A stretch of 64,000 nucleotides of DNA from a virus: positions 32,001 through 96,000 of IMG/VR virus record IMGVR_UViG_3300044970_001982; one strand, written 5' to 3'. The notes beneath the pieces were generated by a model that had not been told where the DNA came from, did no database searches, and was given only the letters and a program-made list of their open reading frames with translations. A program made the translations under genes and the position numbers. The first letter of the stretch is position 1. Every line of letters starts with the position of its first letter. This document shows, piece after piece, positions 1 to 60,815 of this stretch.

Positions 1-294
1 AGCGCTGCTCATCCATACATCTGAGTTTAAAAGAGCTATAATATCAGATTCTCCAGAAGCCGCTAACTGATTGCAGGCGGCAGAATATCCTATATTGTCA
101 TTGTCATAGAATTTCTTTATTTTATATCTGCCATAATTATATTTTAACCAGTAAACACTATCATCTTTTGATCCATTATCCGCTATGTGCAAATTCCATA
201 CCTTAGGCGTTTCATGAAGATCATGATGGAGACAGTCTAGAAACCTATTTAATAATGGCCTAGTGCCATAGTTTACTACGCAAAGATCTATCAA
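1..294 (-). CDS. Family 2 glycosyltransferase (GT-A fold, WbbL-like), N-terminal 98 aa; runs off the left edge; absent from the ORF track
   Basis: Manual translation from TTG at 294 (GGTGA RBS-like sequence at 301-305): MIDLCVVNYGTRPLLNRFLDCL...WNLHIADNGSKDDS...NDNIGYSAACNQLAASGESDIIALLNSDVW. It has the GT2 hallmarks: N-terminal VVNY strand, DNGSxD, NxGxxxAxN and LLNxD. Frame is open to position 1. Confidence 0.9.
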   Translation of the reverse strand, partial: MIDLCVVNYGTRPLLNRFLDCLHHDLHETPKVWNLHIADNGSKDDSVYWLKYNYGRYKIKKFYDNDNIGYSAACNQLAASGESDIIALLNSDVWMSSA

Positions 295-300
295 ATTAAA

Positions 301-781: not shown

Positions 782-965
782 TATCTATTTTATAAAATGA
801 AATATTATCTGTATCTGGTTCAAATGTAATAAAAAATATATTCTTGTCTTCAGGTTTATATCCTTCTGGCGGTGGAGTTTCCACTGCTATCTTTTTAGAA
901 GAACAACCATATACTTGACTGTGATTTTTGTAGATTACTACATAATTAAGCTTTGATGCCGGCAT
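747..965 (-). CDS. Hypothetical protein
   Basis: ORF track; fits the gene packing between dCMP deaminase and the next ORF. Confidence 0.6.
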   Translation of the reverse strand: MPASKLNYVVIYKNHSQVYGCSSKKIAVETPPPEGYKPEDKNIFFITFEPDTDNISFYKIDSEKEDNVKEAE

Positions 966-1425: not shown

Positions 1426-1580
1426 AATACAACACTGGCAGCTGCTAGTGCTCCAGTCATAAGGGCTAAGAATACTGCTAACGATCTTTGTCTGCTATTT
1501 TTTAAATTTTGATTTAGCATTTGCATACTTATAGACCAGTTAATTAGAACTGTAAAAACAACTATTCTGAATATATCCAT
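1422..1580 (-). CDS. Small membrane protein (52 aa, two hydrophobic segments); below the ORF-track cutoff
   Basis: Manual translation MDIFRIVVFTVLINWSISMQMLNQNLKNSRQRSLAVFLALMTGALAAASVVL*. It fills the gap exactly, with a TAATG overlap with thyX and an ATGA overlap with the deaminase. Confidence 0.8.
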   Translation of the reverse strand: MDIFRIVVFTVLINWSISMQMLNQNLKNSRQRSLAVFLALMTGALAAASVVL

Positions 1581-2302: not shown

Positions 2303-2666
2303 CCTCTATGTTCATCATATCATCATGATCATCTTCATCACAATCTTCATCTATTATAGCAAGTTCTACAAATTTATCCTGCATACAATCGTTGAAATCT
2401 TCTGATATTTTGTATATTGACGCTATCAACTCAGCAACCTCTCCCTCTGGATCCTTTAATAAACTTTCGTCTTGAAGGATTGATAGTATAATCTCACTTA
2501 TATGAGATACGCAGTCAGAAAGAGATTGCTGAACCAATACCAATTCTTTAATACCAAGTGTTATGTCAGATTTATAAGTTTCAGACATGTTTTTTAAATC
2601 TTCCGAATTAACTATTTCGGAAAATATTTTTTCAAAATCTTCGTTATCAAAGTTTTCTTTTGACAT
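2271..2666 (-). CDS. Acidic hypothetical protein
   Basis: ORF track; AAAGGA RBS upstream; very D/E-rich C-terminal tail. Confidence 0.7.
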   Translation of the reverse strand: MSKENFDNEDFEKIFSEIVNSEDLKNMSETYKSDITLGIKELVLVQQSLSDCVSHISEIILSILQDESLLKDPEGEVAELIASIYKISEDFNDCMQDKFVELAIIDEDCDEDDHDDMMNIEDEDDTGDGFY

Positions 2667-2687
2667 TGGGCGTCCTTTATCGTTAGA

Positions 2688-15223: not shown

Positions 15224-18200
15224 CTAGCTCCAAGAGTTTCCTTCTAGATCTTGTAGATCAAAAACCACTCCAGCTGTTAAGTTATTCCGAATAACATCAT
15301 AAATTTGTTTAGGATCAACAAAGTTTTCTTTTACTTCTTGTGGAATTTGAATAATCACGTAGCCACCTCTGTTATAAGTATTTCCCTGTGGTGGATAAAC
15401 GTCCCAATAAGATAGTACATCATATTCCTCTGTCAACGAGTTATTGTTTAGAGAATCTAAAATTTCCGAATTATCCAAATCACCTCTTAATCCGCCACCT
15501 CTAACTCTTAGGTCTACGAAGTTTGTTGCTATAGAATTTGGCTTATTGGTGACATAGATAACTGCTATTGTTAAAGCAAATGGATTATAGTTTATTGATG
15601 TGCTGTCGAAAATGGAAGAATCATATGTAAAGTTTATACCACTATTATATGAATAATCATCTATTTTTTCATAAGCTAAACTAGAAACTGGAATTCCATT
15701 TAAAAGCGATTCATTGTAGTTTGCGTATCTATATACGTTATTTGGAAGAATATAAATATAAAGTGGTTTATCAAAACGAATCGTTTCTTGATTAAGAAGC
15801 GGATTTAATGGAATTGGAAAACCATCCACTTCTCTTAATAGAAGGTTATTATTTTCTGTACTATAATTAACCTTTATTAATGATCTGCTAGATGGAACTA
15901 TAGCCTTTTTAAAACTAATTAATCCAGTATAACAATTTACATCCTTTATTATTGAATAATCTACTTCTACCCATGCACTAGATATGGATTCTCTTGTATA
16001 TATTTTTATTTCTGGCTTAATTATTCCAACTATAGAATTCAGATTATCTGTAGGATGATTCCATGCAACTATTGGAGCTCTTCTAACTTGAATTGTTTTT
16101 GTATCTATAATTGATGGATTTTCATCAACAACATCATAGTATCCATAGCCAAATACTGTTGACCAAGCTATGTTTGGTGTATCCAAAGTAGAATACTGGC
16201 CAACTAAACGTTGTCCCATATAATTCCACTTCCAATCGTGCCATTTAATATTTGGATCTATATATATTTCCTTATTAAAGGATCCGTTAGAAACTGGAAG
16301 CTCCCAAGTATCAAACTTAGAAATGTTTTGACTAATAGAGCCGACATTTATAGATGTATTTGATTTGTATTTAACAGAATATACAGGCACTAAGTATTTT
16401 AGTGGAACTCTTGATGGAATAAATGTATTTGTATTGTTTAAGCCAAAGAATTCACCATCTCCACTTTGTCCATCAGCATCTAGTGCGCATATAGCTATGT
16501 ATATGTTTGCTGAACTCCTAGAGAATGCTTCCCCTGACCTTGAATACAAATCAATATAGTTTATATAATTTCCTAAGAACTTTCTTTCGGAAACATCATA
16601 GAAGCCATATCTAATTCCATCATCTGGTAATTCGTTATAAACAGAGAAGTAACCATATCTTAGATCTGTTTCTTGAGAAGATATATTTTGGTAGGTCGAC
16701 GCATCAATTGCGGCTCTGATCTGCGAGTAAGTTGGTAGCCCAACTGGTGCGCCCGCGTCATTGCATAATAATAAAACGCCATCTCCATAATTAATAGTAT
16801 TCTTACCAGAAGGGAGAATGTTACCAGATAGTGTTTTGAGTCTAAAATTACTTGATAGATCTATTGGTTGAGTTCTAACCAAAGATGTTCCATAGTATGT
16901 TGCTGATGTGTCAAATGTTATTGTATTTGAAGTATTTGTGTATGAAACGGCGTTTGAAGAAACTTCTGCCCCAGTTGAAGTTCGTATGTTAGATACGGAA
17001 AGGTTGCTAAGAGTTACTGATCCAGTGCTATTTGTAAAAGACTCTACTTTGATTCTGGAGTTTTCAAAACCATCAGACCCAATTTCTAATTCACCTTCAT
17101 CTATCTCTATTGTGGAATTGCCAAAAGATAAAGAGGTAATATAATTAGATAATCTAGACAGCTCGTTAACGTTTCTTACATTTAAATTCTTTGGAACGCT
17201 TGGAGATAAATCAGATATAGAAGTACTAAAAACAACTTCTACATCTACAGATATTGGAGTATTTTCATCCTCATATCCAGTTTCTGTTCCACCATCAACT
17301 GTTCCATTAATTTTAATTCCAGAAATTCCGAAACCTTCACCTTGACCAAAGCCAGGAGAAATTGCCAAACCCTCTATTCCTACAATTATATATCTACAGC
17401 TATTTGCTTCTAGATTATTTATTGGTATATTTATATCTCCTGAGGCAGCCGATAGGTTAAGGGCTTCAAGTTTAGAATATTTAAATATATTTGTTTCAAA
17501 TGTTGGACCCCAGCCAACTGAAACTACTTTGAAGTTTCTCCATCTAGCGTCTTGTTGATCAGGGGTAATTGTTATCCCAGTAACATTTATCATTGAACTT
17601 GGAACTTGCATAAACAAGATGTCTGCTCCGAGTTTAGGTCCAACTGTTCCTGTGAAAGTTATCTTTCTGTATGGTCTTCCGGAGTTAACATCTGGCGCTA
17701 AAGACATTGTTTCAACTTTAGATATATATTTTCTTATGTCTGGAGTAGCAAATGCTTTCCAATCATCTAAAGCTTTTTGTCCCTCAAAAGCTCTTTTTAT
17801 TAACCACACAAGAGCTAAATACCATTTAGTCTCACTATCAACTTTGTAATCTTTAAATCTTTGATTATTAGCTACTTGGAAATTGTATACAGCCTGAGCA
17901 GTAACTGGCCCATATGATCCATCTATAGCCCCTTTATATTTCCCAGCTGCTGCTAAAGTATACTGTATATATTTTACATATTCATGTGTTGGCGAACCTT
18001 GAACCCAAATTCTAGGATCTCCATGTATATCTATATCACCTGTGTAAGGGAATATGTTTGAGGCATCTGCTACGTTAGTTGATCTACTGGTTTGATAGTC
18101 ATCGATTCCAGACTTTACATTTTCTGCGGGAAGTGTAGCTGGTTTTGGTCCAACAGGAATGTCTATTTCTTTTTTACCCTTGTATGTGGCGTTGACAGTG

Positions 18201-20695
18201 TAGTTTGCTTTTCCTGTAAAATTGAAGTTAAAGCTGTAAGGAACATCGCTTCCTTCATACATGGTATATAGGGACTTTAGTCTAAATGGATATGAATTAA
18301 ACCCTAAAGATGGACTTAATAAGTTTGTTAAAGATCTTGATGAACTACTATTAACTGGCCTTTCGAGCAATATATGTGGGCCCAAACCTAGTATTCTTGA
18401 CAACGATCTACTATATTTTTGCGTGTATGCATATAGTGGTCTTGTGGCTGGATTTGAAGAACTTGAAGTATTTATCTTATATAACGTATAAGAAGAAGGA
18501 ATATCTACAGAAGCAGAATTTGGATCAGCTACTTTTGTAGAGTCTTTAATTGTTACATCTGGATTAGTAATTTCAACATAGAATTCAATGTCGTCTACAG
18601 ATAATTCTTCTATTATTGACCTTTGGAATTGCGACATCTTTAATGTAAGCTGTGATTTAAAGTAGTCAAATATGCTTGTATTAGTAGATGCTGAATTTTT
18701 CGTTAAATTCCTTGCATAAAGAGACGTACTAGAGTTTATTGATATAAGATCAAAATCCGGCTTTTCACTGTCTTCAAGAGCTGAGGAATACATAACCCAA
18801 GAGGAAGACCAGTCTGTAATAAAATTGATTATTGAAGAGGCCAAACTTGTTTGTCTCATCGACAGAGCTTTGCAATACATGGCGTATGAGATGGAGTTAA
18901 ACAACAACTTGAATGGCCCTTCTATAACAGAAGAAAATAGAGTTGTACTACTATTAATTGTACCAAAATGTGATGTTCCATTATTAATATTTAATACTTT
19001 GTCTGGATTTGCAATATCATAAATACTGTTACAGTATGACATTAGCCCAAATGTTGTGGCTAATATATTTCCTTTTGTAAGGCTATCATTTTGACGCGGA
19101 TATGATAATAGAACGCCAATTGACTTAAGATCAGAAGAACTAGGTCCAGCTTTAACAAATGTATTTGAACTTACTGCATTAGCAAAGTACTTATAGCTTT
19201 TGGGTGAAACTCCATTTATTTTACTAGAGCCTATAACGCTATAATAATTTTTTTCAAATATTGTATCATTTATAGTCCATCCACCATTTTTTGTTGCATC
19301 AATACAGATACTGCTATCTATCATGTCAACATTATTGGCTACTACAGAAGATGTCATATTTAGTTGTCCTCCGGAGTTTACATTAGATGCATTAGGGCAG
19401 AAGGACAGGTCTAGGATAAGTGTTCCAAAATTATTGGCAACAAAGTTATTTATAAGACTAGCTTGACTAGAAGTTATTGTAGAGTCAGGAGACCAAAGAA
19501 GCACATCGAATTGACTTAACTGGGCTGAAGTAACTGAGTCTATATTTACTTTCCAATAATTAGCTAAAGATTTGTCTGTTAATGTCGTAAGTGGATTTTC
19601 AAATACAAGCTTAGTTAAATTAAATGGAGAATTTTCTAATCTATACAAAACGTATGGATTAATATTTTGATTTGTTGAGCCTGAATAAAGAATTCCAGCT
19701 TTGACAGTTCTTATTCTAACTGGAGAATCTGGATTAGAATCTATTTCATAATCTATGTCTTGTAAATTAATATTTCTTCTTATTTTTCCTATTATTCTCC
19801 AATTGAAAACTTCATAATTTCTATAGTCTTTAATTGCCTTGCTTGGTACAAGAGCTTGATATCCGTTTGTTATAGAAACATGACCTGTGTTTACACTGGA
19901 ATAATTTTCGTCAATCTTTTTAATTGAAAAATTTCTAGATCCATAATAATTAGGATCTATAACAAAAGACTCTTCTGGAATATTATTAAAGTATTTAACA
20001 GCATTTATAGTTTCTGTATATCTTAACTGTTGATTGCTAAATTTTCCGTTTTCATCAGATTCAACTTTATTGTACATTAACTTAAGGTTTAAAGGATAGG
20101 AGCTATCCAGTACAACTATAACTCTGTATGGTATTTCCTCTAGATTAACGTTTGCACTAGTTTTATATGGTTCTAATAGAATCTTATATTTTTTTCTATT
20201 TGTATTTAGATCAATATAATCTTTTCCAAATTCATCTAAAACCTTTATGCCAAGATTATATATTTGATCTTGGTCAGGAAGATTGTTGTAAGATGTAAAA
20301 TTAAAAATTGCAGGAGCGGCAGTAAAGTATCTACTTATATAAACATAGTGACCAAAATCGTTAGCGTTTATTTCGGTAGGATTCAGTGTTTCAGATACTG
20401 TTGGCCTGTGTAGAAATAGGTTACTTATCGTAATGTCATCAGTTGATAATACTGATGATCCGTTCATTCTTCTTAAGATTCCCAACTCATCTGCGTACAT
20501 TAGTTCTGCGTCATAGGATTCTTTTATTTTATTTTCTAGAATTGTTTCTGAAACATTTACTGTAACTATGTTATTTTTTGGAGAAATTGATTCTGATGTA
20601 TACCAAGATAAAACTGCTGCGTCTGCAGGAACGTTTGTTCCTATTTTGATTGCTTTTTCATTTTCGTTTGTAGTAATGTTGGTAAATTTTTTCAT
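15224..20695 (-). CDS. Large baseplate/tail protein with an internal peptidoglycan-binding domain
   Basis: 1823 aa, beta-rich; VKYIQYTLAAAG...IDGSYGPVTAQAVYNFQ...VDSET (~17815-17985) matches the three-helix PG_binding_1 pattern. Confidence 0.7.
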   Translation of the reverse strand: MKKFTNITTNENEKAIKIGTNVPADAAVLSWYTSESISPKNNIVTVNVSETILENKIKESYDAELMYADELGILRRMNGSSVLSTDDITISNLFLHRPTVSETLNPTEINANDFGHYVYISRYFTAAPAIFNFTSYNNLPDQDQIYNLGIKVLDEFGKDYIDLNTNRKKYKILLEPYKTSANVNLEEIPYRVIVVLDSSYPLNLKLMYNKVESDENGKFSNQQLRYTETINAVKYFNNIPEESFVIDPNYYGSRNFSIKKIDENYSSVNTGHVSITNGYQALVPSKAIKDYRNYEVFNWRIIGKIRRNINLQDIDYEIDSNPDSPVRIRTVKAGILYSGSTNQNINPYVLYRLENSPFNLTKLVFENPLTTLTDKSLANYWKVNIDSVTSAQLSQFDVLLWSPDSTITSSQASLINNFVANNFGTLILDLSFCPNASNVNSGGQLNMTSSVVANNVDMIDSSICIDATKNGGWTINDTIFEKNYYSVIGSSKINGVSPKSYKYFANAVSSNTFVKAGPSSSDLKSIGVLLSYPRQNDSLTKGNILATTFGLMSYCNSIYDIANPDKVLNINNGTSHFGTINSSTTLFSSVIEGPFKLLFNSISYAMYCKALSMRQTSLASSIINFITDWSSSWVMYSSALEDSEKPDFDLISINSSTSLYARNLTKNSASTNTSIFDYFKSQLTLKMSQFQRSIIEELSVDDIEFYVEITNPDVTIKDSTKVADPNSASVDIPSSYTLYKINTSSSSNPATRPLYAYTQKYSRSLSRILGLGPHILLERPVNSSSSRSLTNLLSPSLGFNSYPFRLKSLYTMYEGSDVPYSFNFNFTGKANYTVNATYKGKKEIDIPVGPKPATLPAENVKSGIDDYQTSRSTNVADASNIFPYTGDIDIHGDPRIWVQGSPTHEYVKYIQYTLAAAGKYKGAIDGSYGPVTAQAVYNFQVANNQRFKDYKVDSETKWYLALVWLIKRAFEGQKALDDWKAFATPDIRKYISKVETMSLAPDVNSGRPYRKITFTGTVGPKLGADILFMQVPSSMINVTGITITPDQQDARWRNFKVVSVGWGPTFETNIFKYSKLEALNLSAASGDINIPINNLEANSCRYIIVGIEGLAISPGFGQGEGFGISGIKINGTVDGGTETGYEDENTPISVDVEVVFSTSISDLSPSVPKNLNVRNVNELSRLSNYITSLSFGNSTIEIDEGELEIGSDGFENSRIKVESFTNSTGSVTLSNLSVSNIRTSTGAEVSSNAVSYTNTSNTITFDTSATYYGTSLVRTQPIDLSSNFRLKTLSGNILPSGKNTINYGDGVLLLCNDAGAPVGLPTYSQIRAAIDASTYQNISSQETDLRYGYFSVYNELPDDGIRYGFYDVSERKFLGNYINYIDLYSRSGEAFSRSSANIYIAICALDADGQSGDGEFFGLNNTNTFIPSRVPLKYLVPVYSVKYKSNTSINVGSISQNISKFDTWELPVSNGSFNKEIYIDPNIKWHDWKWNYMGQRLVGQYSTLDTPNIAWSTVFGYGYYDVVDENPSIIDTKTIQVRRAPIVAWNHPTDNLNSIVGIIKPEIKIYTRESISSAWVEVDYSIIKDVNCYTGLISFKKAIVPSSRSLIKVNYSTENNNLLLREVDGFPIPLNPLLNQETIRFDKPLYIYILPNNVYRYANYNESLLNGIPVSSLAYEKIDDYSYNSGINFTYDSSIFDSTSINYNPFALTIAVIYVTNKPNSIATNFVDLRVRGGGLRGDLDNSEILDSLNNNSLTEEYDVLSYWDVYPPQGNTYNRGGYVIIQIPQEVKENFVDPKQIYDVIRNNLTAGVVFDLQDLEGNSWS

Positions 20696-23600
20696 CAGTA
20701 TTCCTCATGATCCGGATGCAATAGCGAGTAGTCAACGACTATATTTGGAGTTGTTCCCATTATTCCCATCTGATACTGTGTATATTTATTTAACATAGTC
20801 CATACTGGGGGTTGCCAGTTTGGTGTTGTATCTAATGAATATAGTACCGATGGATTAGTGTGGTTGTAAACAAAATTAGGAGTTGCTATTAGCTCTGAAT
20901 TGTCTTGCTTGTTTACTGTATATATGTTTGGAAGCGGGATATCCGATTCATTGCTATATTGAATTGGGTCATAGGATTCATACCAATATATAACATCTCC
21001 AGCTATAGTAACGTCTGTTGAATCAACAGTTTCCCCATCTTCTTCTAAAAGATTTCGAACAATTTCATCATTAACTATATTAACTCTAGCAAACCAATAT
21101 CCTGGAGCGCCAACTTCCTGTGAAGTCATTGCAGTATCTATTTCAAAACTACCATCAGCCTGTGAGGTAATTAAATAATCTGGTGTTGCAGCAAAGAGGT
21201 CTTTTAGGGTTCTTGCCTTATTCCAAGCTATCTGAACTTCGTGGTTAAATGAATCATTTTTCCACAATATTTTTCCAGATATTCCTATTGAGCTAACTCC
21301 GTCGGCATTTACTATAAAATCTGTGGGAGCTGCTTTTATCCAAACTCTATTTGGTTCAGTTCTTCTAATATTAAAGGGTATACTTTCAACGTAAGATCCT
21401 GTCTGGCTATTAGATCCACCATTTGGTGTAGCCGATCCTATACCAGTAATGGTAATTGTTGAAGAAGTTACCTCGGCTGGCTGAGGACCTGTATATCTTA
21501 TGAGTGTTTTTGCTAATCCATTATCATTCGTTGTTACATAATTTGGTGTAGCTAATATTAGGTTACCTGAAATTTCAAAAGTTTGACCAGGCTTTATGTT
21601 ATCATTTTCATCATAAGAAACTATGGAGAGGTGCATTATGTCAGAGTATGCGTCGGAGATATACCCTGGAGATAGGTATGTTTCTGTATGAGAGAAATCA
21701 TATTCACTTAATGATACATAAACATACCCCTCATCAATGGGGTTAACATCTGGGCTTACATCTAAATCTATTGTCTGAGTATTGTCATTAATTGCTGATT
21801 CATATGTAATTGAATATATTTCTTCATAGTTAGGTGTTGTACTAAAGTAAATATATGTATTATATTCATCGTTTACAGAATCATAAACACGATTATCTAT
21901 ACTCCATGCCTGATTAACTGTATAAGTTACTTCATATTCTCTTCCAATAATTGATGGAGTTGACTGATCGAAGCACTCTAGCTTATTTGTTGCGGTTGAT
22001 AAATCTGAGAATAATATTTCGCCAGTATATTTATCTGCAACCGTAATATTAAATACATCTTCATAGGCTAAGTATAGCGAGTTGCCAAAATTCCCATAAA
22101 CAGACTCTGTATTTACAAAGGATAAATTACCAGGTGTTGCGCTATCTTCAAAAACTATATTTCTATACTGTGTTTCATGAACATTAACAATAATTGGAGA
22201 TCCGTTGGTAGGCGTAGAGTTCAACTTTATAGAGAAGAATTGACCATTAAATGTCTCTGTAACTGGTTCTGAATAAACGTAATATTCATCTTCATTTAAG
22301 AACAGATGGCCAGTGTGAATTGCTCTTCTCTTGGCCATTAGTGCAGCTGTGTCTTTTTTAGCATGCAAAGAGACTTCTATTGAATCAGAGTTTTCTACAG
22401 CGTTGTTTATGTTTTCAACTAGTTGATCCTTATTTTCTACGTATACAATAATATCATTTGTATCAGAAAGAAAGTTAATGTCTTTAATATCATATATATA
22501 TTCCAAGTTCAAATTAAAACTATTTGAATCTAAATTAATAGTCTTTAAAAATGTGTCTGAGTTGAAATAAGAAACTAAATATTGTTCCTCATTTTCATAA
22601 ACATTATCTAAAGAATCTATAAATCCACTGAACAACTGAGGTGTTGTTTGCGCTGAAAAAGAAAAATATTCCTCTCTATATAGAGGATAATAATTTCCAG
22701 ATGCCGACTCAAATTTAATATAACTTGGAGTAGATGAGAAGTTAATTGTTGCAGAATCAAAATACTGCGGAGTGGTTAGCTGAACTCCACTTTCATCATA
22801 AAATGAGTATAATATATTTGGCGAAGATGGAACAAGATATCTATTATTGTCTACAAAATCAACAACAGCACCACCAGCAGTGTTGTTAATTATATTGTCT
22901 GTGCCAAAGTAAGCCAACCCTACTGGTGCAGCAGAATTAATATACAAATACTCTGGAGTAGCGTTAGGTGGATATATGATTAGATCAACTAGATCATCTA
23001 CATATATAATTGGTGTTGTTAAACTCTGCTCAAACCTACTATTTCCTTCGTTCAAGTACACATAAGAAGATATTTGGTTAGTGTCTTGAATAAAGACATC
23101 ATCATTATATATGGTAGATCCTATTCTAAGATTAACATTATCTGCAGTTATATTTGGAGATGCTATAGATGTTTCTGTTCCAGCAGAAGGATTTACATAG
23201 TAGTTTGGAGTGGATAGATTAAATCCCCCCCAATAATCGCCAATGTCAATAGTTGTATCATAATCTTGAGTTAGATAATCCCAACCACCATTAGAAAATA
23301 CTATCTTAACTTGAGATACATCTTCTATAGATATAGAAGAGAAATTAGGGGATGATGGGTTGTTGTATACTTCATTGTATGTTTTATCTCTAAACTCAAT
23401 ATCATTTAAAGTATTACCTTCTTGCGTGAATATCTTAATAAGATTAAATTCTGGACTTGATACATGATCCTGTCCATATCTATTGTAAACATAAAAATCT
23501 TCTCTATTCAAATAGTTAAGATTTGCATAGAATGTCGATGGAGTGGCGTAATTTGCATGCGCTTTGGTTGTTACCTCATAGGTAAGCCCAACTCCACCAT

Positions 23601-25263
23601 CTATACTTTCTACTGAATAACTACTTGCTGTTTGCAAGTAAGATAGATACCAAGAAAAATCTAACTTAATTGGATTATAATAAGTTTTGTCAGCGCTTCT
23701 GTATACACCAGATATCTCAGCATAGCCGTCAAAAGATATGGTAGATTTTTCTACTGACTCAACTATAAGTCTTGCATCAGAGAAATCTCCAATACCAGGT
23801 TGATATAGATCTGTTAATGGAGAAGATGCCGCATCATATATTGCAGATATTCTAGATACGCCTTCATTTTCCATTCCAGCGTAATCCCAGATTCCCTCTT
23901 CCCATCTTACGTATCCAATATTTGTGGGATATCTTTTATTTATGTCTAATACTATGTCTTTAAATTTTTGAAGAGGTATTCCAGAATCACTAAAATATGG
24001 AGTTGATACTTCCATATCTGAAATTTCAATAATTTCTGGAGTTGCACCTGCGTAGTCAGAGTCTGGAGTAGCTCCATACGCTTTCCATATGTCCAGTTCT
24101 CGTCTTAAGGTTCTTTGAAGTGCTTCTTTGTATACTCCAGGTAAATTTCTGTAAACGTCTAATATTCTCTTTTTATATCTCGAATTATCTTCAAGGAATA
24201 ATCTTGGCAGACCGACTCTGACTCCAAACTCATCAAAAATATTAAAAACATTTGTTGGATATTGATCAAACGCAATTCCATTAACCAATAAAGAATCATA
24301 TTGTCTAATGGTTAAAATTTGCTTATCTATAGGATTATAGAAATACGCATGATCTGTTGGTTTTAAGTTGTAAAAATAACCAAGATCATGAACTGCAGAT
24401 AGCTTTACGCCATCTCCAACTACACCAATTACATTGACGGGAATATTATACGAAACATAAACCCAGGTTAATATTTCCTCATTCGCGCTTGCTATATAAT
24501 TATTTATATTTTGTAAATCTATTTTAGTTACAAATTGATCTATAGAATCTTGCAAAAGTGCTGAAAGGAACTTTCCTCCAGAAGAATTTGGAGTAGCTGT
24601 ACTTGGTGTAGCATTTTCTTCTGAGTCTTCAAAAAGCGAAGTCCATGTAGGGAATCTTCTTAATATATTTTTAGTATTTTGAGATACTACAGGAGACGTA
24701 ATATCGTGAATGCCAATCTCTAAATAAAATAGCAAACCTAAGTCAGATGTATTTCCAGTTTCTGTAAATATTTCTAACTCAATTTTAATCCAAGGCTTAG
24801 AGTTTCTAATAAATATTGCATTAGAATCAAAGGAAACTTTAGACTGAAGCCATGGACCATTTTCTTCGTCTGATTCATATATTTGAATATTAAAAGTTGG
24901 GACTTCGTCTCCGGCAACATTGGTAAATGTATGCTTATAGGCTAAGATATCTATTCTAGAACTTGTATCTACGAACCTGAGTAAGTCAGGGGTTGCAGCA
25001 TCATATATAACTTCTCCGGCATCTGTCATATAAACAGAGTTCTGGACTAATGGTGTTGCGTGGTCTTCCGAGAAAGAGGGGGAGGTTAACTCTATTCCGG
25101 TATAAATATTGTCACCAATAAGGTTTAAGCCATATCTAGACCGAGTGTATGAATAGTTGGTATAAGCTGTATTATGGTACAGGTTAATTGGATTACTGGT
25201 CCAGACATTACTGGACTTATTAAAATCTGAACTTCTCAGAAGTAACAAATATTGTTTCATCAA
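20695..25263 (-). CDS. Large baseplate wedge protein (gpI/gp7-like core plus Ig-like domains), rich in [AST]TP motifs
   Basis: Follows the baseplate J gene; FDEFGVRVGLPRLFLEDNSRYKKRIL wedge-type motif; C-terminal Ig-like VTTNDNGLA; very acidic. Confidence 0.7.
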   Translation of the reverse strand: MMKQYLLLLRSSDFNKSSNVWTSNPINLYHNTAYTNYSYTRSRYGLNLIGDNIYTGIELTSPSFSEDHATPLVQNSVYMTDAGEVIYDAATPDLLRFVDTSSRIDILAYKHTFTNVAGDEVPTFNIQIYESDEENGPWLQSKVSFDSNAIFIRNSKPWIKIELEIFTETGNTSDLGLLFYLEIGIHDITSPVVSQNTKNILRRFPTWTSLFEDSEENATPSTATPNSSGGKFLSALLQDSIDQFVTKIDLQNINNYIASANEEILTWVYVSYNIPVNVIGVVGDGVKLSAVHDLGYFYNLKPTDHAYFYNPIDKQILTIRQYDSLLVNGIAFDQYPTNVFNIFDEFGVRVGLPRLFLEDNSRYKKRILDVYRNLPGVYKEALQRTLRRELDIWKAYGATPDSDYAGATPEIIEISDMEVSTPYFSDSGIPLQKFKDIVLDINKRYPTNIGYVRWEEGIWDYAGMENEGVSRISAIYDAASSPLTDLYQPGIGDFSDARLIVESVEKSTISFDGYAEISGVYRSADKTYYNPIKLDFSWYLSYLQTASSYSVESIDGGVGLTYEVTTKAHANYATPSTFYANLNYLNREDFYVYNRYGQDHVSSPEFNLIKIFTQEGNTLNDIEFRDKTYNEVYNNPSSPNFSSISIEDVSQVKIVFSNGGWDYLTQDYDTTIDIGDYWGGFNLSTPNYYVNPSAGTETSIASPNITADNVNLRIGSTIYNDDVFIQDTNQISSYVYLNEGNSRFEQSLTTPIIYVDDLVDLIIYPPNATPEYLYINSAAPVGLAYFGTDNIINNTAGGAVVDFVDNNRYLVPSSPNILYSFYDESGVQLTTPQYFDSATINFSSTPSYIKFESASGNYYPLYREEYFSFSAQTTPQLFSGFIDSLDNVYENEEQYLVSYFNSDTFLKTINLDSNSFNLNLEYIYDIKDINFLSDTNDIIVYVENKDQLVENINNAVENSDSIEVSLHAKKDTAALMAKRRAIHTGHLFLNEDEYYVYSEPVTETFNGQFFSIKLNSTPTNGSPIIVNVHETQYRNIVFEDSATPGNLSFVNTESVYGNFGNSLYLAYEDVFNITVADKYTGEILFSDLSTATNKLECFDQSTPSIIGREYEVTYTVNQAWSIDNRVYDSVNDEYNTYIYFSTTPNYEEIYSITYESAINDNTQTIDLDVSPDVNPIDEGYVYVSLSEYDFSHTETYLSPGYISDAYSDIMHLSIVSYDENDNIKPGQTFEISGNLILATPNYVTTNDNGLAKTLIRYTGPQPAEVTSSTITITGIGSATPNGGSNSQTGSYVESIPFNIRRTEPNRVWIKAAPTDFIVNADGVSSIGISGKILWKNDSFNHEVQIAWNKARTLKDLFAATPDYLITSQADGSFEIDTAMTSQEVGAPGYWFARVNIVNDEIVRNLLEEDGETVDSTDVTIAGDVIYWYESYDPIQYSNESDIPLPNIYTVNKQDNSELIATPNFVYNHTNPSVLYSLDTTPNWQPPVWTMLNKYTQYQMGIMGTTPNIVVDYSLLHPDHEEY

Positions 25264-25276
25264 TTAACCTTAATTT

Positions 25277-26446
25277 TTAATAAACTGAAGTACCCATTAT
25301 AACAGAATTTACCGTTATAGTTCCAGCTGCTAAGTATTTTTTAACACCATCTGGAGTATAATCTGTCAAAGGAATTTCTCTTCCATCAGCTGTCATTGCA
25401 GTTATTACTACACCCCTAATGTAGTCGGAAGCTGTCTTTATTTGACGCTCTAACTCACCAACGGAGAGAGTTTCTCCAACAGATAGAGAATTTAAATACC
25501 TTTTAACGAATAGCACAGATTGATTTCGTATACCAGCTGCCAATGTTTCGTTTACTCCCATAGGAATTCTTATTGTATAAGACAATCCTATCCCAACTTT
25601 TTCGGCTATTCTTACATTAAATTTAACACCAACTGGTTTTACTTGTGAAGTTGCAAGTATGATGTTTTGAGGTAAATTTGATAAGGCTGAAGAATTTTCA
25701 GGAACAACAATAATGTCACAAGAACCAACCCCATAAGATCCTTCTCTAATTTTTACATCCCTAACACCTCTAACAGACAAGGCTGCGAAGCGTACGGACT
25801 CAACTGTTCCAACAGCTTTAGACTTTATAGATGCTACTATTCTTCTTCTATAATTAGAATCTGACTCTGAATTTACATTTGAATAAACTTCTTTTGGATT
25901 ATTACAAAACAGTATTACTCCAGCTGGAGAAAAAAAGCTATGTTTAGTTAGCGAATTAACTGGTGCAACGTAGGCATTGTCAGTGAAATTTGGCTCTACT
26001 CTACCATAAGCTTTTAGATTTCCCCTGGCGATAGTGACGTCTCCAACTAGCTTAAATGAATACTGTTTTGTAACAAAGTTGCTAACATCATTGTAAACAA
26101 GTGTTCCGCTAGGAATTAGTACATCAGAGCTGTGAGCTTTATTTATAAAAAATTCTATATTGAAAGACTGTCTATCTTCTGCGGAATAATCTGTTATAGT
26201 TTTTCTTTGTATCCCATAAAGATCGCCAATAAGGTCTAAATTTTTTCCAGAAGCTGTCAGTAAGTTATTTTGATTAATATTAAATCTAAGAGACTCATAA
26301 AGGTCAGATATTTCAGAAGTAAATGCCTCAGCAAACGCTCTAGCTATCGACCCTGGATATATCGCAGTAATTCCTGCGTCTTTCTGGAGTGAGTTTAGTA
26401 CATTTACTAAAATATCAGACTTATTTTTAATACCGTATACAGTCAT
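25277..26446 (-). CDS. Baseplate J-like wedge protein
   Basis: PGSIARAFAEA, ASGKNLDLIGDLYGIQR, IPSGTLV, ESDSNYRRRI, GTVESVRFAALSVRGV, KPVGVK. Confidence 0.9.
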   Translation of the reverse strand: MTVYGIKNKSDILVNVLNSLQKDAGITAIYPGSIARAFAEAFTSEISDLYESLRFNINQNNLLTASGKNLDLIGDLYGIQRKTITDYSAEDRQSFNIEFFINKAHSSDVLIPSGTLVYNDVSNFVTKQYSFKLVGDVTIARGNLKAYGRVEPNFTDNAYVAPVNSLTKHSFFSPAGVILFCNNPKEVYSNVNSESDSNYRRRIVASIKSKAVGTVESVRFAALSVRGVRDVKIREGSYGVGSCDIIVVPENSSALSNLPQNIILATSQVKPVGVKFNVRIAEKVGIGLSYTIRIPMGVNETLAAGIRNQSVLFVKRYLNSLSVGETLSVGELERQIKTASDYIRGVVITAMTADGREIPLTDYTPDGVKKYLAAGTITVNSVIMGTSVY

Positions 26447-56881: not shown

Positions 56882-58117
56882 TTATAGATTAATGGCTACT
56901 CTGACTTCGATTTCTTTGAGCTCGAAGGCAGGTGTTAAAATGAGGTCTACAATCGCCTTATTTTCGTTTGGTATATAAGAGACTGTAAAGTCACTACCAA
57001 GTAAGGCTCCTACTATTTGCATTCCTCTCAAGCCAGATGTTATTGCTGTTTCCATTGCATTGCGTGTTTGAATGTTTGATGGCTCACCAACAAATCTCTG
57101 GCAGGCTTGTCTTACAACTGATGTTGCGTCGTCAACAATTCTCTTTGTTGAGAGACGTGTGTAATCTGATGTTGACCAAGCAAATGTTAGGCCTTCACCA
57201 AATACTGGAATCTTGTTAAAGTTTATAATTACAGAGTTAACGCCCTTTGTTCCCAAAGCTGCCTGCTGAGTTCTTGTTGGAGCGTAGCGAACAGAATCTA
57301 TGTTGTACAAAGGCTTATTAACTACTGAGCTATAAGAAGGATTTAGGCTCATAGTTGCAGCTAAGTTAGCTGCACCATTTGAGTATCCAAATTCTGTTGT
57401 GCCAGATACATAATTAACTGGCTTAACCTCTGATGCTACGATTGTAACATATGGTCCAACTTCCTTAAGAAGATCACTGGCGTCACGATCTGGCAATGAG
57501 CTAACAGCTAAGTGTGAGTTAACCTGACCAGGAGTCATTGTTTCTGAAGCTCCTGTATAGGGCTTGATTCCCATAACGGCGACGCATGGGTTAATATTCT
57601 CTGAAATGTCCTTAACCTTAGCTGCTACCTTATAGGCCCAGTTGCTAGTTACTGTGGCACTATTATCTGCATAGAAACCAAATTCTGGAGAACTTGGAGT
57701 AGCTGCCCATTCATCTGGATGAGCGCCTCTTCCCCATGGAATAATAACATCAGGAATAACAGCTTCAGCTGCAATGAATGCAGCGTCAAAAACACTGCCG
57801 CCATATGAGCTACTTGTTACTGTTCCGGTACTATGGGTCCATGTTGTATCGCTTGGCAACGGAACAATATACACTCTGCCGGCACCAGCTAAAATAAGTT
57901 CTAGGTAGGCGCGGTGAGCATCTGAGCCATCGCCAAATGCAGTGATAACATCAGCCTCATTAGAGGCTCTAACGACATCAAGATCAGCTACAGAACCTGT
58001 GCCACTGGCGGTACTACGCTTGGCAATCGCAACGATTCTGGGACCAACTGGTGTGTCCTGACGTGAGACGCTATAGAAGCGATCTCTTATTAAAGTTTTT
58101 ACTCCAGGTGTAGCCAT
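56882..58117 (-). CDS. Tail sheath protein (compact)
   Basis: MATPGVKT N-terminal arm; C-terminal RLSTKRIVD...FVGEPSN...AIVDLILTPAFELKEIEVRV; GGAGG RBS. Confidence 0.88.
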   Translation of the reverse strand: MATPGVKTLIRDRFYSVSRQDTPVGPRIVAIAKRSTASGTGSVADLDVVRASNEADVITAFGDGSDAHRAYLELILAGAGRVYIVPLPSDTTWTHSTGTVTSSSYGGSVFDAAFIAAEAVIPDVIIPWGRGAHPDEWAATPSSPEFGFYADNSATVTSNWAYKVAAKVKDISENINPCVAVMGIKPYTGASETMTPGQVNSHLAVSSLPDRDASDLLKEVGPYVTIVASEVKPVNYVSGTTEFGYSNGAANLAATMSLNPSYSSVVNKPLYNIDSVRYAPTRTQQAALGTKGVNSVIINFNKIPVFGEGLTFAWSTSDYTRLSTKRIVDDATSVVRQACQRFVGEPSNIQTRNAMETAITSGLRGMQIVGALLGSDFTVSYIPNENKAIVDLILTPAFELKEIEVRVAINL

Positions 58118-58231: not shown

Positions 58232-59194
58232 TTATGTATTGGGTGTTGCATTTTGGAATAGATCAACTATATTTCCAGTTGTTCCTTCAATATTTGGTGT
58301 AGCCAATTGATTTCTTAATAGATCTCGTTCATATGCCATCCACATTCTTGCATCTACAGCTATCGACTCTATTCTTTCATTCTTAATTGCATACGTCTTT
58401 TCTGTTGTTAACATATATGTAACAGTTCTTTTGTGTATGTCACTTCCAGCTCTATTAATTTCTGAGTCAGCCAATCTTCTAGAATAGAATAACTCCGATG
58501 CTCCAGCTGCTTTAAATATTGGAGTATACTCAATCATAAAATCTTCAAATGCCTCAATAATCTGATCACACAAAACTGCAGCGTCTAGATCGTCTCTTGT
58601 TGTTGTTTCTCCATTAAATCCCTGAAAAGTTCCAACTTTAGCCATTACAGTAAAGCCAATTACATTTTGAAATCTTTGGCCATAAATTGTGTAATGATTA
58701 TTAGCTGAACTAACAATATTTTGTCTCATTCTTGGTTTTGGTTCTGTTGTATGAGATTTTCTTAACTCTAGGTGATATCCAATTATTGCTGGATATTCAC
58801 CAATATTTGGAACGGTATCATTTGGTGCGGAAGAAATATCTGACACACCTGATGATGAATTAAATCCGACTCCAGATGTTGAACCCTGAGAATATAAGTC
58901 TCCATCTCCTAGTGTCTTTGCTTGCCAAACATTTGTTGAGTCTTGATAAGAAACGCTTGACTCACGATTTATTGACATTGGCAAAATGGGTATTAATGGA
59001 TTTGAATCTTCCCATAGTTTTTTAACTAAACTAATAAATTCTAAGTATGTTAAATTACCAGAATAGATTTCTTCAATTCCATCTTCATCTACTCTTCTAT
59101 AACCGGGAGCTTGCAATGATTCGACTCCAAACTGTCTTTGAACACCATAGAAGTGAGTTTGATAAGTGGGAAAGCCTCTGTTTATATAAACCAT
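58232..59194 (-). CDS. Probable tail completion/terminator-type neck protein
   Basis: Position just before the sheath; GQRFQNVIGFTV...IIEAFEDFMIEY...RTVTYML; ends with two ATPN motifs. Confidence 0.55.
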   Translation of the reverse strand: MVYINRGFPTYQTHFYGVQRQFGVESLQAPGYRRVDEDGIEEIYSGNLTYLEFISLVKKLWEDSNPLIPILPMSINRESSVSYQDSTNVWQAKTLGDGDLYSQGSTSGVGFNSSSGVSDISSAPNDTVPNIGEYPAIIGYHLELRKSHTTEPKPRMRQNIVSSANNHYTIYGQRFQNVIGFTVMAKVGTFQGFNGETTTRDDLDAAVLCDQIIEAFEDFMIEYTPIFKAAGASELFYSRRLADSEINRAGSDIHKRTVTYMLTTEKTYAIKNERIESIAVDARMWMAYERDLLRNQLATPNIEGTTGNIVDLFQNATPNT

Positions 59195-59195
59195 T

Positions 59196-60815
59196 TTATG
59201 CTCCGGGTCCTGCTGCTAAACTAAAGTTTACCCTCTTTAATCCAAGAGAAGAAATTAGTTCAATTTCAAATATTAATTTTCCTGAATTTATTTCACTAGT
59301 GTCTATTCCAAGTGAAAAATCTATAATTATATTTTTATTCTTTAAACTCAATAAGAATAGTTTAGTGTCAGAAATTATTCTGTCATAATTAATCATGTCA
59401 AAATTTGACAAACATATACCTTTTACTTCACTAACGACTAAAGAAACTAATCTCATCTGCGCAGTTTTTGAAAAAACAGAATCTGGACTAGCCATTGTGT
59501 ATTCATTGGTTAAATATACTTCAAATGGAACTGCTCTTCTTGTCTTCTTTCCTCTGTATAGAGTATTGATACCAAGCTGTTCTAATTGCTCATACTCTGA
59601 GAAAGTTAAATCAGCTCCATATAAAGACATTGCTCCGGGAATTCTTGTTCTTATTAAAGACTTATTTAAGCTTGCTGATGCTAACATTCCAGCAACAGCG
59701 GTAGCAGCAGTTGAGGTATAACTAACCTTAAGTTGAGGATGCTGAAAAACAAGTTCTCCATAAACTGGAATAACATATCTTCCTTTATCAGAAATTATTT
59801 GAGTACCGTAAGCGTACTGAGTGAGTTTATCTGTAAAAATATAATCTTCTTTTAAAAGATCTATATCTGATGATTTTATTCCGTTTGAACGAGAGCCAAT
59901 AATTCCCATCTGAACATTTCCTGTTGTATTATGAAAATTATTTAGATAATCTGCTAACTGTATAATAAAATCAACATCTCCAGTATTTATAATAGACGTT
60001 TCTAGTGGAACTATTATGTCTATAAAATCTAAATTAATAATAGATTCATAGGTTTCTGCTAACCGATCATAATATCTCTCGTAAAAGTTTTGAGAACTGG
60101 GGGTTGCATCATTTAAACTAAATAAAGTTGTTTCTATTAATCGATTATCGTATTTATCTACATACTCTATCATTGGCGCAGCAGCGCATATCATAATGTC
60201 TCTAGCTCCACAAGAGTATGCGTCTAATACACCTCTTAATAATGGACTATTAATATTTCCATTTAACAGATCAATTGCGTGCTGAATGGAATTTATTTTT
60301 ACTGGAAAATTTAATTCTATTCCATCTGCGTGGCCTACTAAAAGTATCGTATTTGTATTAGATCTATTTAATTGCTCATATGTTGGATTATAATTTATAA
60401 TACCAGATTTAGGAGCAACAACTGAAGTTGGAGATAATGAAGATGTTCCAGCTTTTACCTGAAAAGGTGAGGCTACATTAATTGTTTGTACCTCAGAAGA
60501 TGTTCTTGCTATTACTGAATATTTATATTCAAATAAACTTTGAGGAACTGTGTAATGAAAAGTATATTCTCCAGCAGAAATTCGTTCTATTCTATTTCCA
60601 GTTTCTTCTGGATCCTGATTCAAAAGAGAGTATGGCCCATCTATTAGTGCGCCACCTGCGGACTCACCTCTCAAAACATATACTACTACATCTACTGGGG
60701 TAGCTAATCCTGCTGGATCGTATATACTTCCATCATAATCTGTAAATATGAATTTGAACTGAGCGGATTGTCCCTTAGTTAAAACTAACATATTACTTCT
60801 CTCTTGTAGCGCCAA
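59196..60815 (-). CDS. Second sheath-like protein with N-terminal Ig-like domain
   Basis: PVKINSIQHAIDLL...LLRGVLDAYSCGARDI, LEQLGINTL, QMRLVSLVV, FEIELISSLGLKRV are sheath-type; N-terminal SAGEYTFHYTVP is Ig-like. Confidence 0.7.
   Translation of the reverse strand: MALQERSNMLVLTKGQSAQFKFIFTDYDGSIYDPAGLATPVDVVVYVLRGESAGGALIDGPYSLLNQDPEETGNRIERISAGEYTFHYTVPQSLFEYKYSVIARTSSEVQTINVASPFQVKAGTSSLSPTSVVAPKSGIINYNPTYEQLNRSNTNTILLVGHADGIELNFPVKINSIQHAIDLLNGNINSPLLRGVLDAYSCGARDIMICAAAPMIEYVDKYDNRLIETTLFSLNDATPSSQNFYERYYDRLAETYESIINLDFIDIIVPLETSIINTGDVDFIIQLADYLNNFHNTTGNVQMGIIGSRSNGIKSSDIDLLKEDYIFTDKLTQYAYGTQIISDKGRYVIPVYGELVFQHPQLKVSYTSTAATAVAGMLASASLNKSLIRTRIPGAMSLYGADLTFSEYEQLEQLGINTLYRGKKTRRAVPFEVYLTNEYTMASPDSVFSKTAQMRLVSLVVSEVKGICLSNFDMINYDRIISDTKLFLLSLKNKNIIIDFSLGIDTSEINSGKLIFEIELISSLGLKRVNFSLAAGPGA

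What the first reader, a model, noticed from the sequence alone, without database searches (positions are those of the whole stretch)
20695..25263. A-T-P / [AST]-T-P tripeptide saturates one baseplate protein: candidate modification sequon
Seen (hand count): 13 ATP, 6 TTP and 5 STP in 1522 aa, plus several SSP/TSP/ASP. Every TP I found is preceded by A, S or T, often followed by N/S/D/E (e.g. ENATPSTATPNS, YGATPDSDYAGATPE, ILATPNY, GSATPNG, LIATPNF). A rough composition estimate predicts well under one ATP. Codons differ (GCA-ACA-CCA, GCT-ACT-CCA, GCC-ACT-CCA, GCA-ACC-CCT) and flanks are unrelated, so this is protein-level selection rather than a DNA repeat. I saw no ATP in the 3745-, 2220-, 1823- or 1549-aa proteins. 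Known: some actinobacteriophages glycosylate virion proteins using their own glycosyltransferases, and actinobacterial O-glycosylation favours Thr/Ser near Pro/Ala. Inference: a dispersed sequon marks exposed tail surfaces for glycosylation or another modification, or serves as a docking site for a decoration protein.
Basis: partly seen in the sequence, partly recalled or inferred. Interest (0 to 1): 0.85.

Follow-up and report, generated by a model that had tools for sequence, protein, structure and literature searches.

The report
Ala/Ser-Thr-Pro tag on phage baseplate arm
A 1522-residue baseplate protein of an uncultured ~200-kb aquatic phage carries 24 scattered copies of the three-residue tag Ala/Ser/Thr-Thr-Pro (chance gives about one). 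Relatives keep the tag, yet some lineages have lost it as a block, so something probably reads it, most likely a phage sugar-adding enzyme; no chemistry has been done.

Summary
The minus-strand ORF 20695-25263 has 24 Thr-Pro, all preceded by A, S or T (13 ATP, 5 STP, 6 TTP). Shuffles give a mean of 1.3 and a maximum of 10.

The enrichment is at protein level and holds across the family: about 190 metagenomic homologues down to 25% identity, from phages of 33-51% GC, carry 10-28 copies. Many copies sit at aligned columns inside otherwise unrelated flanks.

All sites lie in predicted loops. There is no internal sequence repeat. Accessory domains inserted into the same protein, and the fibre and giant proteins, lack the tag. 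The sheath, neck, a sheath-like protein and an Ig-like protein keep a few [AS]TP sites in variable loops across three genomes.

At least four to five lineages nested among tag-rich relatives have lost the tag wholesale. In them Thr is replaced by almost any residue while Pro often stays, so the tag is not needed for the fold.

Two GT2 glycosyltransferases and a GT-D-like gene are conserved at 65-68% and 31-46% identity in the complete relatives.

Best reading (about 0.5): a sequon for O-glycosylation by phage enzymes. This is unproven. I could not check whether tag loss goes with loss of these genes. This scan has already reported the same tag on other genomes of this phage group.

The parts
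20695..25263 (-). Gene for the 1522-aa baseplate 'arm' protein (P0001). The start is probably the ATG at 25258-25260.
   Evidence: It lies directly downstream of the Baseplate_J gene. The same order is seen in Bacillus phage WH1, where gp088 (Baseplate J) precedes gp087.
25277..26446 (-). Baseplate_J (gp6-like wedge) gene immediately upstream
   Evidence: PF04865 E = 5e-9 and phrog_6 E = 2e-33.
23599..25263 (-). N-terminal ~555 residues: a beta-sandwich (1-186) followed by an alpha/beta domain. This part is shared with Bacillus jumbo-phage virion proteins and holds the sites at residues 60, 69, 90, 189, 218, 223, 398, 407, 420 and 480.
   Evidence: tblastn hits to 0305phi8-36 ORF162 and WH1 gp087 over residues 187-531. 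AF2 mean pLDDT 69. All sites lie in coil.
20698..23613 (-). C-terminal ~970 residues: a chain of Ig-like/beta-sandwich domains holding 21 of the 31 [AST][TS]P sites.
   Evidence: AF2 mean pLDDT 81. Foldseek hits to intimin/invasin and lambda tail-tip gpJ. No sequence-level internal repeat.
24604..24612 (-). ATP at residues 218-220. Thr and Pro are invariant in 87 of 87 full-length homologues.
21832..21840 (-). TTP at residues 1142-1144. Thr and Pro are invariant in 87 of 87; the first position is S, T or A.
24037..24072 (-). Twin sites GATPDSDYAGATPE (residues 398-409), absent from the aligned region of Bacillus phage WH1 gp087.
20746..25086 (-). Span of all 31 [AST][TS]P sites. Residues: 60, 69, 90, 189, 218, 223, 398, 407, 420, 480, 573, 602, 637, 684, 701, 749, 768, 813, 830, 844, 873, 1016, 1042, 1101, 1142, 1238, 1278, 1359, 1460, 1479, 1504.
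   Evidence: Coordinates of each site. Sequence context. Secondary-structure context.
57695..57703 (-). ATP at residue 139 of the 411-aa tail sheath, in an indel-rich loop. The two complete relatives have STP and ATP here.
58241..58303 (-). Two ATP sites of the 320-aa neck-like virion protein (residues 298 and 316). The second lies three residues from the C-terminus. Both are kept in G005 and G006.
60099..60107 (-). ATP at residue 237 of the 539-aa sheath-like protein, kept in G005 and G006.
1..294 (-). 5' part of the GT2_B glycosyltransferase gene (263 aa; the rest lies just before the window). GT2_A and the GT-D-like gene lie 2-3 kb further upstream of the window start.
   Evidence: PF00535 hits. 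Orthologues at 65-68% identity in G005 and G006.

Best explanation
[A/S]-T-P (less often [AST]-S-P) is a short linear tag displayed in surface loops of the baseplate arm. A few copies also occur in loops of the sheath, neck, a sheath-like protein and an Ig-like virion protein. Something outside the fold reads it. The most likely reader is a phage-encoded cytoplasmic glycosyltransferase set: GT2_A, the adjacent GT-D-like gene, and GT2_B. In this reading the set O-glycosylates the Thr before or during virion assembly and gives the arm about 20-30 glycans. Shown here: the enrichment, its conservation, its loop location, its recurrence in unrelated virion proteins, its wholesale loss in some lineages with Thr specifically replaced, and the clade-wide conservation of the transferase genes. 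Inferred: that the Thr is modified at all, that the modification is a sugar, and that these transferases write it.
For: 1. Information is concentrated in three residues. Given TP, the preceding residue is A/S/T in 98% of cells and Gly in only 0.5%. Given T/S, Pro follows in 92%. Flanks show at most 2.5-fold preferences.
2. hhalign finds no internal repeat; all probabilities are below 10%.
3. All 31 sites lie in coil in the AF2 models.
4. Lineage-specific TP columns are still preceded by Ala in 30% of cases, against a 5% background.
5. ATP is enriched in the sheath-to-head module: 11 against 1.7 expected here, and 16 against 4.3 in G005. It is not enriched in fibre/giant proteins (2 against 2.1; 0 against 1.8) or in non-structural proteins (2 against 2.2; 3 against 4.9).
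6. In three genomes [AS]TP[NSD] is kept inside indel-rich loops and at a C-terminal tail.
7. Seven full-length homologues have 0-4 [AST]TP, with TP at the neutral level. They are nested among tag-rich relatives, implying at least 4-5 independent losses. At the conserved columns they keep Pro in 47% of cells, but T/S before it in only 17%, against 87% in tag-rich relatives. The replacements are V, E, I, Y, K and H.
8. GT2 genes are present in 5 of 5 relatives that are at least 90% complete, in 12 of 13 long close relatives, and in 4 of 5 records of a distant 40-51% GC subfamily. GT2_A, GT2_B and the GT-D-like gene have orthologues at 65-68% and 31-46% identity, which for the two GT2 genes is far above the arm's 38-43%.
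9. The only PDB sequence match of GT2_A is GmaR (E = 1.3e-6). From my own knowledge, GmaR is the Listeria flagellin O-GlcNAc transferase.
10. Bacillus phage WH1 has neither the tag at the aligned places nor any GT2.
Against: There is no chemistry. I could not check whether tag-poor lineages lack the transferases. The GT genes sit among nucleotide-metabolism genes (a nucleoside deoxyribosyltransferase-like gene, DenV, SNase, dCMP deaminase, ThyX, RNR). They lack the TTACTAT element seen before late genes, so they could instead act on DNA or on host glycans. Many sites are conserved very deeply (Thr and Pro 87 of 87), and many sit in tight 4-8-residue inter-strand turns with N/S/D and then an aromatic residue after Pro. 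That pattern also fits a type I/ST-turn. The most exposed parts, namely the inserted lectin-like domains and the fibres, are not tagged. The GmaR and GT-D matches are weak (31 bits; 26.4 bits against a cut-off of 27).
Confidence: 0.5

Rival explanations
1. It is an intrinsic structural motif. Each [AS]-T-P is an ST-turn/Pro cap that ends one beta-strand and starts the next in a chain of beta-sandwich domains. Nothing reads it.
For: All sites are in coil. About half have Pro 1-5 residues before the next strand or helix. N/S/D after Pro and then Y/F/I fit a type I turn. Several sites are invariant across 87 homologues. At two columns Thr alternates with I/V. The tag is absent from inserted domains of other folds.
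Against: At least 4-5 lineages keep the full-length protein at 35-46% identity but have lost nearly all sites. In them Thr is replaced by V/E/I/Y/K/H while Pro often stays. There is no repeated sequence context. The same tripeptide is conserved in variable loops and at a C-terminal tail of unrelated proteins. Gly is excluded at position -1. Other beta-rich virion proteins of the same phage have none.
Confidence: 0.22
2. It is a short linear motif read by a protein partner rather than a transferase, such as an assembly chaperone, a decoration or cement protein, or a fibre-network contact. Alternatively it is a sequon for a different modification.
For: The same genetic signature as for the best explanation: a tight tripeptide, loops, several proteins, and block loss. 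Nothing ties the GT genes to virion proteins directly.
Against: No candidate partner was found. No Pkinase gene occurs in 5 of 5 complete or near-complete relatives. P4H-like 2OG oxygenases are absent from the complete relative G005, which keeps 19 sites. Twenty to thirty docking sites per chain on one protein, plus a few on the sheath, neck and an Ig-like protein, is hard to picture for a single partner.
Confidence: 0.2
3. It is chance, amino-acid composition, or a DNA-level repeat or signal.
For: None beyond the low-complexity S/T/N-rich composition of the protein.
Against: Shuffles never exceed 10. Sixteen different 9-mers encode the motifs and the signal is frame-specific. The enrichment holds in homologues from phages of 33-51% GC.
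Confidence: 0.01

Closest known systems
Virion O-glycosylation of mycobacteriophages by phage-encoded glycosyltransferases (Freeman et al. 2023, as cited in PMC12619734; the paper itself is not held)
   Same: Phage-encoded glycosyltransferases together with virion structural proteins as presumed acceptors. One site here, in the neck protein, lies at a C-terminal tail.
   Different: In that system, as summarised in PMC12619734, the glycans sit at the C-termini of the capsid and tail-tube subunits. Here a defined tripeptide is scattered 20-30 times through loops of a baseplate arm. The phage clade and host are unrelated, and no glycan has been shown.
Multi-site cytoplasmic glycosylation of large bacterial adhesins: HMW1C on HMW1, and TibC/Aah heptosyltransferases on TibA/AIDA-I (from my own knowledge)
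   Same: One soluble transferase decorates a large beta-rich surface protein at tens of short acceptor loops before export or assembly.
   Different: Those sequons are N-X-S/T, or Ser within 19-residue repeats. The enzymes belong to other GT families. There is no phage context.
GmaR, the GT2-family flagellin O-GlcNAc transferase of Listeria (only PDB sequence match of GT2_A), and GT-D/DUF1792 enzymes of serine-rich-repeat adhesin glycosylation (PF22882)
   Same: GT-A (PF00535) and GT-D-like domains. Both named relatives act on protein O-glycans in the cytoplasm (from my own knowledge).
   Different: The matches are weak: 31 bits over the nucleotide-binding half, and 26.4 bits, just under Pfam's cut-off. 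The acceptor specificity is unknown.
Baseplate protein downstream of Baseplate_J in Bacillus jumbo phages (0305phi8-36 ORF162 virion structural protein; WH1 gp087)
   Same: Same gene position and a homologous ~340-residue region (24-25% identity, E = 1e-15 to 7e-8).
   Different: The Bacillus proteins are about 540 aa and lack the Ig-like chain. They lack the tag at the aligned positions, and WH1 has no GT2 gene.
ST-turn / Asx-Pro turn local structural motifs (from my own knowledge)
   Same: A Thr-Pro followed by N/D/S in a tight loop before a strand or helix.
   Different: Such turns tolerate S/D/N in place of Thr and are not lost as a block. Here tag-poor lineages put V/E/I/Y/K at the Thr position.

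Membership tests
Phage virion O-glycosylation system (mycobacteriophage type) | Phage-encoded glycosyltransferase genes | tested here: met
   There are three PF00535 genes and one GT-D-like gene in the record. GT2_A, GT2_B and the GT-D-like gene have orthologues in both complete relatives. GT2 genes occur in 12 of 13 and 4 of 5 related records.
Phage virion O-glycosylation system (mycobacteriophage type) | Glycan covalently attached to virion proteins | not testable with these tools
   This needs mass spectrometry or glycan staining of virions or of co-expressed proteins.
Phage virion O-glycosylation system (mycobacteriophage type) | Acceptor sites at C-terminal extensions of the capsid and tail-tube subunits | tested here: not met
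   Sites are spread through loops of the baseplate arm. Only the neck-like protein has a site near its C-terminus. The single ATP in the 352-aa capsid-module protein is not conserved.
Phage virion O-glycosylation system (mycobacteriophage type) | Tag and transferases are gained and lost together | tested here: inconclusive
   Every tag-rich record that is complete enough has GT2 genes. Tag-free WH1 has none. The tag-poor lineages within the family could not be fetched.
Baseplate wedge module (Baseplate_J plus the following peripheral protein) | Gene directly downstream of Baseplate_J, with homology to a virion structural protein in the same position in characterised phages | tested here: met
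Baseplate wedge module (Baseplate_J plus the following peripheral protein) | Match to a curated family model | tested here: not met
   No Pfam family matches. Only phrog_21059 'virion structural protein' matches, over residues 331-395. No PDB sequence relative was found.
ST-turn / Asx-Pro turn structural motif | Located in turns or coil next to secondary-structure elements | tested here: met
   31 of 31 sites are in coil, and many lie 1-5 residues before a strand or helix.
ST-turn / Asx-Pro turn structural motif | The hydroxyl or carboxyl capping residue is required; substitutions are limited to S/T/D/N | tested here: not met
   In tag-poor homologues Pro is kept in 47% of cells, but T/S before it in only 17%. 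The replacements are V, E, I, Y, K and H.
Tandem-repeat protein with a motif at equivalent positions | Detectable repeated sequence unit around the motif | tested here: not met
   hhalign of 120-residue windows, all against all: best probability 8.8%.
'Moraphage' lineage of large aquatic phages (PMC12619734) | Heat-shock (DnaK-type) genes in all members | tested here: not met
   No PF00012 match in 5 complete or near-complete relatives.

The most novel reading that the evidence does not exclude
A sequon-directed, multi-site cytoplasmic O-glycosylation system for phage virions. A conserved trio (GT2_A, the adjacent GT-D-like gene, and GT2_B) writes glycans on [A/S]-T-P loops of the baseplate arm, neck, sheath and an Ig-like protein across a large clade of uncultured aquatic ~200-kb phages. 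The system has been discarded as a unit several times.
Probability: 0.45. Interest if true: 0.85.

Novelty: new variant of a known kind. Interest (0 to 1): 0.7.

Why it matters
If the Thr is glycosylated, this would be the first defined sequon for phage virion glycosylation. It would also be a case where the acceptor code can be read straight from sequence in hundreds of uncultured phages. Glycan coats on tail machinery could then be predicted from metagenomes. The repeated natural losses would offer ready-made comparisons for asking what such a coat does, for example in stability, protease or defence evasion, or adhesion. If the Thr is not glycosylated, the tag is still a clean example of a three-residue code under strong selection, gained and lost across lineages, whose reader is unknown.

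Tried and rejected
- **DNA-level repeat or signal:** rejected.
- **Internal protein repeats:** none detected.
- **Generic feature of beta-rich virion proteins or of exposed surfaces:** rejected. About 14,000 aa of fibre/giant proteins and 11,284 aa of inserted DUF1566/FG-GAP/CBM-type domains are at chance level.
- **Proline hydroxylation by a phage P4H-like oxygenase:** unlikely. These genes are absent from the complete relative G005, which keeps the tag.
- **Proline-directed phosphorylation by a phage kinase:** no Pkinase gene in 5 of 5 relatives.
- **Identity with the published 'moraphage' lineage:** rejected.
- **Late-promoter-like TTACTAT before the GT genes:** not found.
- **Fold assignment of the N-terminal 555 residues:** no clear PDB match.
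- **Retrieving genomes of tag-poor lineages:** P0103, P0091, P0222 and P0205 are not in IMG/VR. P0103 and P0091 were also not recovered from the JGI metagenome collection. An alignment-based scan returned only tag-rich loci.
- **Freeman et al. 2023:** not held in the library.
- **AF2 coordinates:** not available to scripts, so solvent exposure of the Thr could not be computed.
Full report
**1. What is at the coordinates**

The ORF 20695-25263 lies on the minus strand and encodes 1522 aa. It follows a Baseplate_J gene (25277-26446; PF04865, phrog_6) by 13 bases. It is followed by an 1823-aa protein with a PG_binding_1 domain.

The window is part of a 109-kb IMG/VR record that CheckV rates as 52% complete. 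GC content is 30-39%. Complete relatives are 205-216 kb, and two have direct terminal repeats.

The only named relatives are Bacillus jumbo phages: 0305phi8-36 ORF162 (a virion structural protein), WH1 gp087 and Edson. They match residues ~190-530 at about 24-25% identity (KLEB27-3 matches 324-519 at 28.9%). In WH1 the homologue also follows a Baseplate J gene. The protein is therefore a peripheral baseplate protein, not an actinobacteriophage protein.

**2. The observation**

- 24 TP, all preceded by A, S or T (13 ATP, 5 STP, 6 TTP).
- 7 of 10 SP are preceded by A/S/T.
- Expected ATP is 0.29.

In 100,000 shuffles the mean [AST]TP count was 1.31 and the maximum 10. The chance that all 24 TP follow A/S/T is 3e-16. 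Sixteen distinct 9-mers encode the 24 motifs, and the DNA pattern is frame-specific. Across the genome only this ORF is strongly enriched (p = 3e-18).

**3. Family-wide conservation**

A word-indexed search found 184 homologues. The 120 listed have 36-92% identity, and nearly all carry 14-26 [AST]TP.

In an alignment of 87 full-length homologues:
- Many sites are positionally conserved. Thr and Pro are invariant at residues 219-220 and 1143-1144.
- Sites at 602, 813, 1042 and 701 are kept in 81-84 of 87 sequences.
- Other sites are lineage-specific.

The constraint is concentrated in the tripeptide:
- With TP kept, the preceding residue is A (59%), S (32%) or T (8%). Gly accounts for only 0.5%.
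- With T/S kept, Pro follows in 92%.
- Flanking preferences are modest: small residues at -2, N/S/D after Pro, then Y/F/I, all at most 2.5-fold.
- TP seen in only one sequence is still preceded by Ala in 30% of cases, against a 5% background. That suggests continuing creation of new sites, although misalignment may inflate the figure.

An exhaustive HMMER search with residues 551-1522 found 125 representatives down to 25% identity. Most full-length ones carry 8-28 [AST]TP. Related loci come from phages of 40-51% GC, so base composition is not the cause.

**4. Structure**

AF2 models were built with 55-sequence alignments.
- **Residues 1-555** (mean pLDDT 69): a beta-sandwich followed by an alpha/beta domain.
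- **Residues 551-1522** (mean pLDDT 81): a chain of beta-sandwich domains. Foldseek matches include intimin/invasin Ig-like domains and the lambda tail-tip protein.

All 31 [AST][TS]P sites are in DSSP coil. Many sit in short loops, with Pro 1-5 residues before the next strand or helix. An all-against-all hhalign of 120-residue windows found no internal repeat; the best probability was 8.8%. The motif is therefore not a relic of a sequence repeat.

**5. Tests that separate 'fold feature' from 'something reads it'**

(a) *Inserted domains.* Many homologues carry accessory domains inserted at about residues 550, 720-840, 955-1015 and 1095-1145 (Pfam DUF1566/Lcl-C, FG-GAP, CBM_4_9). In 33 inserts totalling 11,284 aa, [AST]TP occurs 10 times against 13 expected. 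The tag belongs to the scaffold and not to everything that is exposed.

(b) *Other proteins.* ATP is enriched in the sheath-to-head module: 11 against 1.74 expected, p = 2e-6. It is not enriched in the fibre/giant proteins (2 against 2.1) or in non-structural proteins (2 against 2.2). The complete relative G005 repeats this pattern: arm 19 [AS]TP, sheath-to-head ATP 16 against 4.3, fibre/giant 0 against 1.8, and the rest 3 against 4.9. These figures are not independent of ours, because the sites are homologous.

Three-way alignments (this phage, G005, G006) show [AS]TP[NSD] kept inside variable, indel-rich loops:
- Sheath: AATPSS / GSTPNS / GATPNT.
- Neck-like protein: two sites, one of them three residues from the C-terminus.
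- Sheath-like 539-aa protein.
- A 257-aa Ig-like protein: three sites.
- A 256-aa protein.

The N-terminal MATPG of the sheath and the ATP of the 352-aa protein are not conserved and are probably chance.

(c) *Block loss.* Seven full-length family members have 0-4 [AST]TP, with TP at the neutral expectation: P0205, P0229, P0180, P0222, P0225, P0262 and P0189. They align end to end at 35-46% identity with tag-rich proteins. In a tree of the N-terminal 620 residues they nest among tag-rich sequences, which implies at least four to five independent losses. P0091 and P0103 have lost about half of the conserved sites.

At the 17 columns conserved in their tag-rich neighbours, the tag-poor proteins keep Pro in 47% of cells. 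T/S precedes that Pro in only 17%, against 87% in tag-rich proteins. The replacements are V, E, I, Y, K and H. The Thr is therefore dispensable for the fold, and the tag decays as a class. That is what is expected when a trans-acting reader is lost.

(d) *The Bacillus phage homologue.* WH1 gp087 lacks the tag at the aligned positions.

**6. Candidate readers**

The record has three PF00535 (GT2) genes and a GT-D-like gene.
- GT2_A, GT2_B and the GT-D-like gene have orthologues in both complete relatives, at 65-68% and 31-46% identity. GT2_A and the GT-D-like gene are adjacent in all three genomes.
- The third GT2 is not conserved.
- GT2 genes occur in 12 of 13 long close relatives (5 of 5 that are at least 90% complete) and in 4 of 5 records of the distant subfamily. 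They lie about 15-20 kb from the arm gene.
- WH1 has none.
- The only PDB sequence match of GT2_A is GmaR (E = 1.3e-6). NCBIfam gives only generic weak hits.

Points against a virion role: the GT genes lie among nucleotide-metabolism genes, and they lack the TTACTAT element found before late genes.

Alternative modifying enzymes fare worse. There is no Pkinase in 5 of 5 relatives. P4H-like oxygenases are numerous in some relatives but absent from the complete relative G005, which keeps the tag.

**7. Verdict**

The genetic behaviour points to a tag that is read in trans: a tight tripeptide, loop location, conservation within variable flanks in unrelated virion proteins, and repeated wholesale loss with Thr specifically replaced.

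O-glycosylation by the conserved phage transferases is the best candidate (about 0.5), but it rests on co-occurrence only. A purely structural turn motif stays possible (about 0.2) because of the deep conservation and the turn-like context. A protein-docking motif or another modification takes about 0.2.

The decisive comparison is whether tag-poor lineages also lack GT2_A, GT2_B and the GT-D-like gene.

Earlier notes of this scan on other genomes of the same phage group describe the same tag. They report such a co-loss in one lineage. These are unchecked AI notes, and I treat them as a lead, not as evidence.

Noticed in passing
window 25258-25263: The listed ORF starts at a TTG that is followed at once by an ATG. 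Homologues begin MKQY and the 92%-identical relative is 1521 aa, so the ATG is probably the real start.
   Followed up: partly
P0001 residues ~550, 720-840, 955-1015, 1095-1145 (window ~21830-23610): These are hot spots where homologues carry inserted accessory domains of 120-1100 aa (Pfam DUF1566/Lcl-C, FG-GAP, CBM_4_9). They look like swappable, probably receptor-binding modules on a conserved arm. None is tagged.
   Followed up: partly
window 12619-15222 and 10407-12608 (minus strand): The 867-aa and 733-aa fibre-like proteins have 9 and 7 TP against about 2 expected, yet at most one of these is preceded by A/S/T. This is a different, unexplained Thr-Pro excess.
   Followed up: no
G006:C1:54254-57997 (L102): A 1247-aa protein in the complete relative G006 has 8 ATP among 11 TP. 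They sit in two repeat contexts: SGEGATPNISIGQ three times, and DVxxATPSSGQxLKWN-like four times. Only a 363-aa part has a homologue in G005.
   Followed up: partly
Relatives G006 and G004 (records behind L063 and L036): There are expansions of P4H-like 2OG-Fe(II) oxygenase genes: 8 copies in G006 and 7 in G004, partly clustered. G005 has none.
   Followed up: no
G000:C1:28600-32300 (just before the window and window 1-294): The glycosyltransferase genes (GT-D-like, GT2_A, GT2_B) are interleaved with a nucleoside 2-deoxyribosyltransferase-like gene, a DenV-type pyrimidine-dimer glycosylase and an SNase. dCMP deaminase, ThyX and a class II RNR follow in the window (946-4622).
   Followed up: partly
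window 15224-20695 (minus strand): The 1823-aa protein downstream of the arm has a PG_binding_1 domain at residues 904-946 and weak endolysin-family PHROG hits. It may be a virion-borne cell-wall-binding or lytic protein.
   Followed up: no
G006:C1:208687-210302 and 5-3169: In this record, which has direct terminal repeats, the arm gene is split across the record ends. The assembly therefore opens inside the gene.
   Followed up: no
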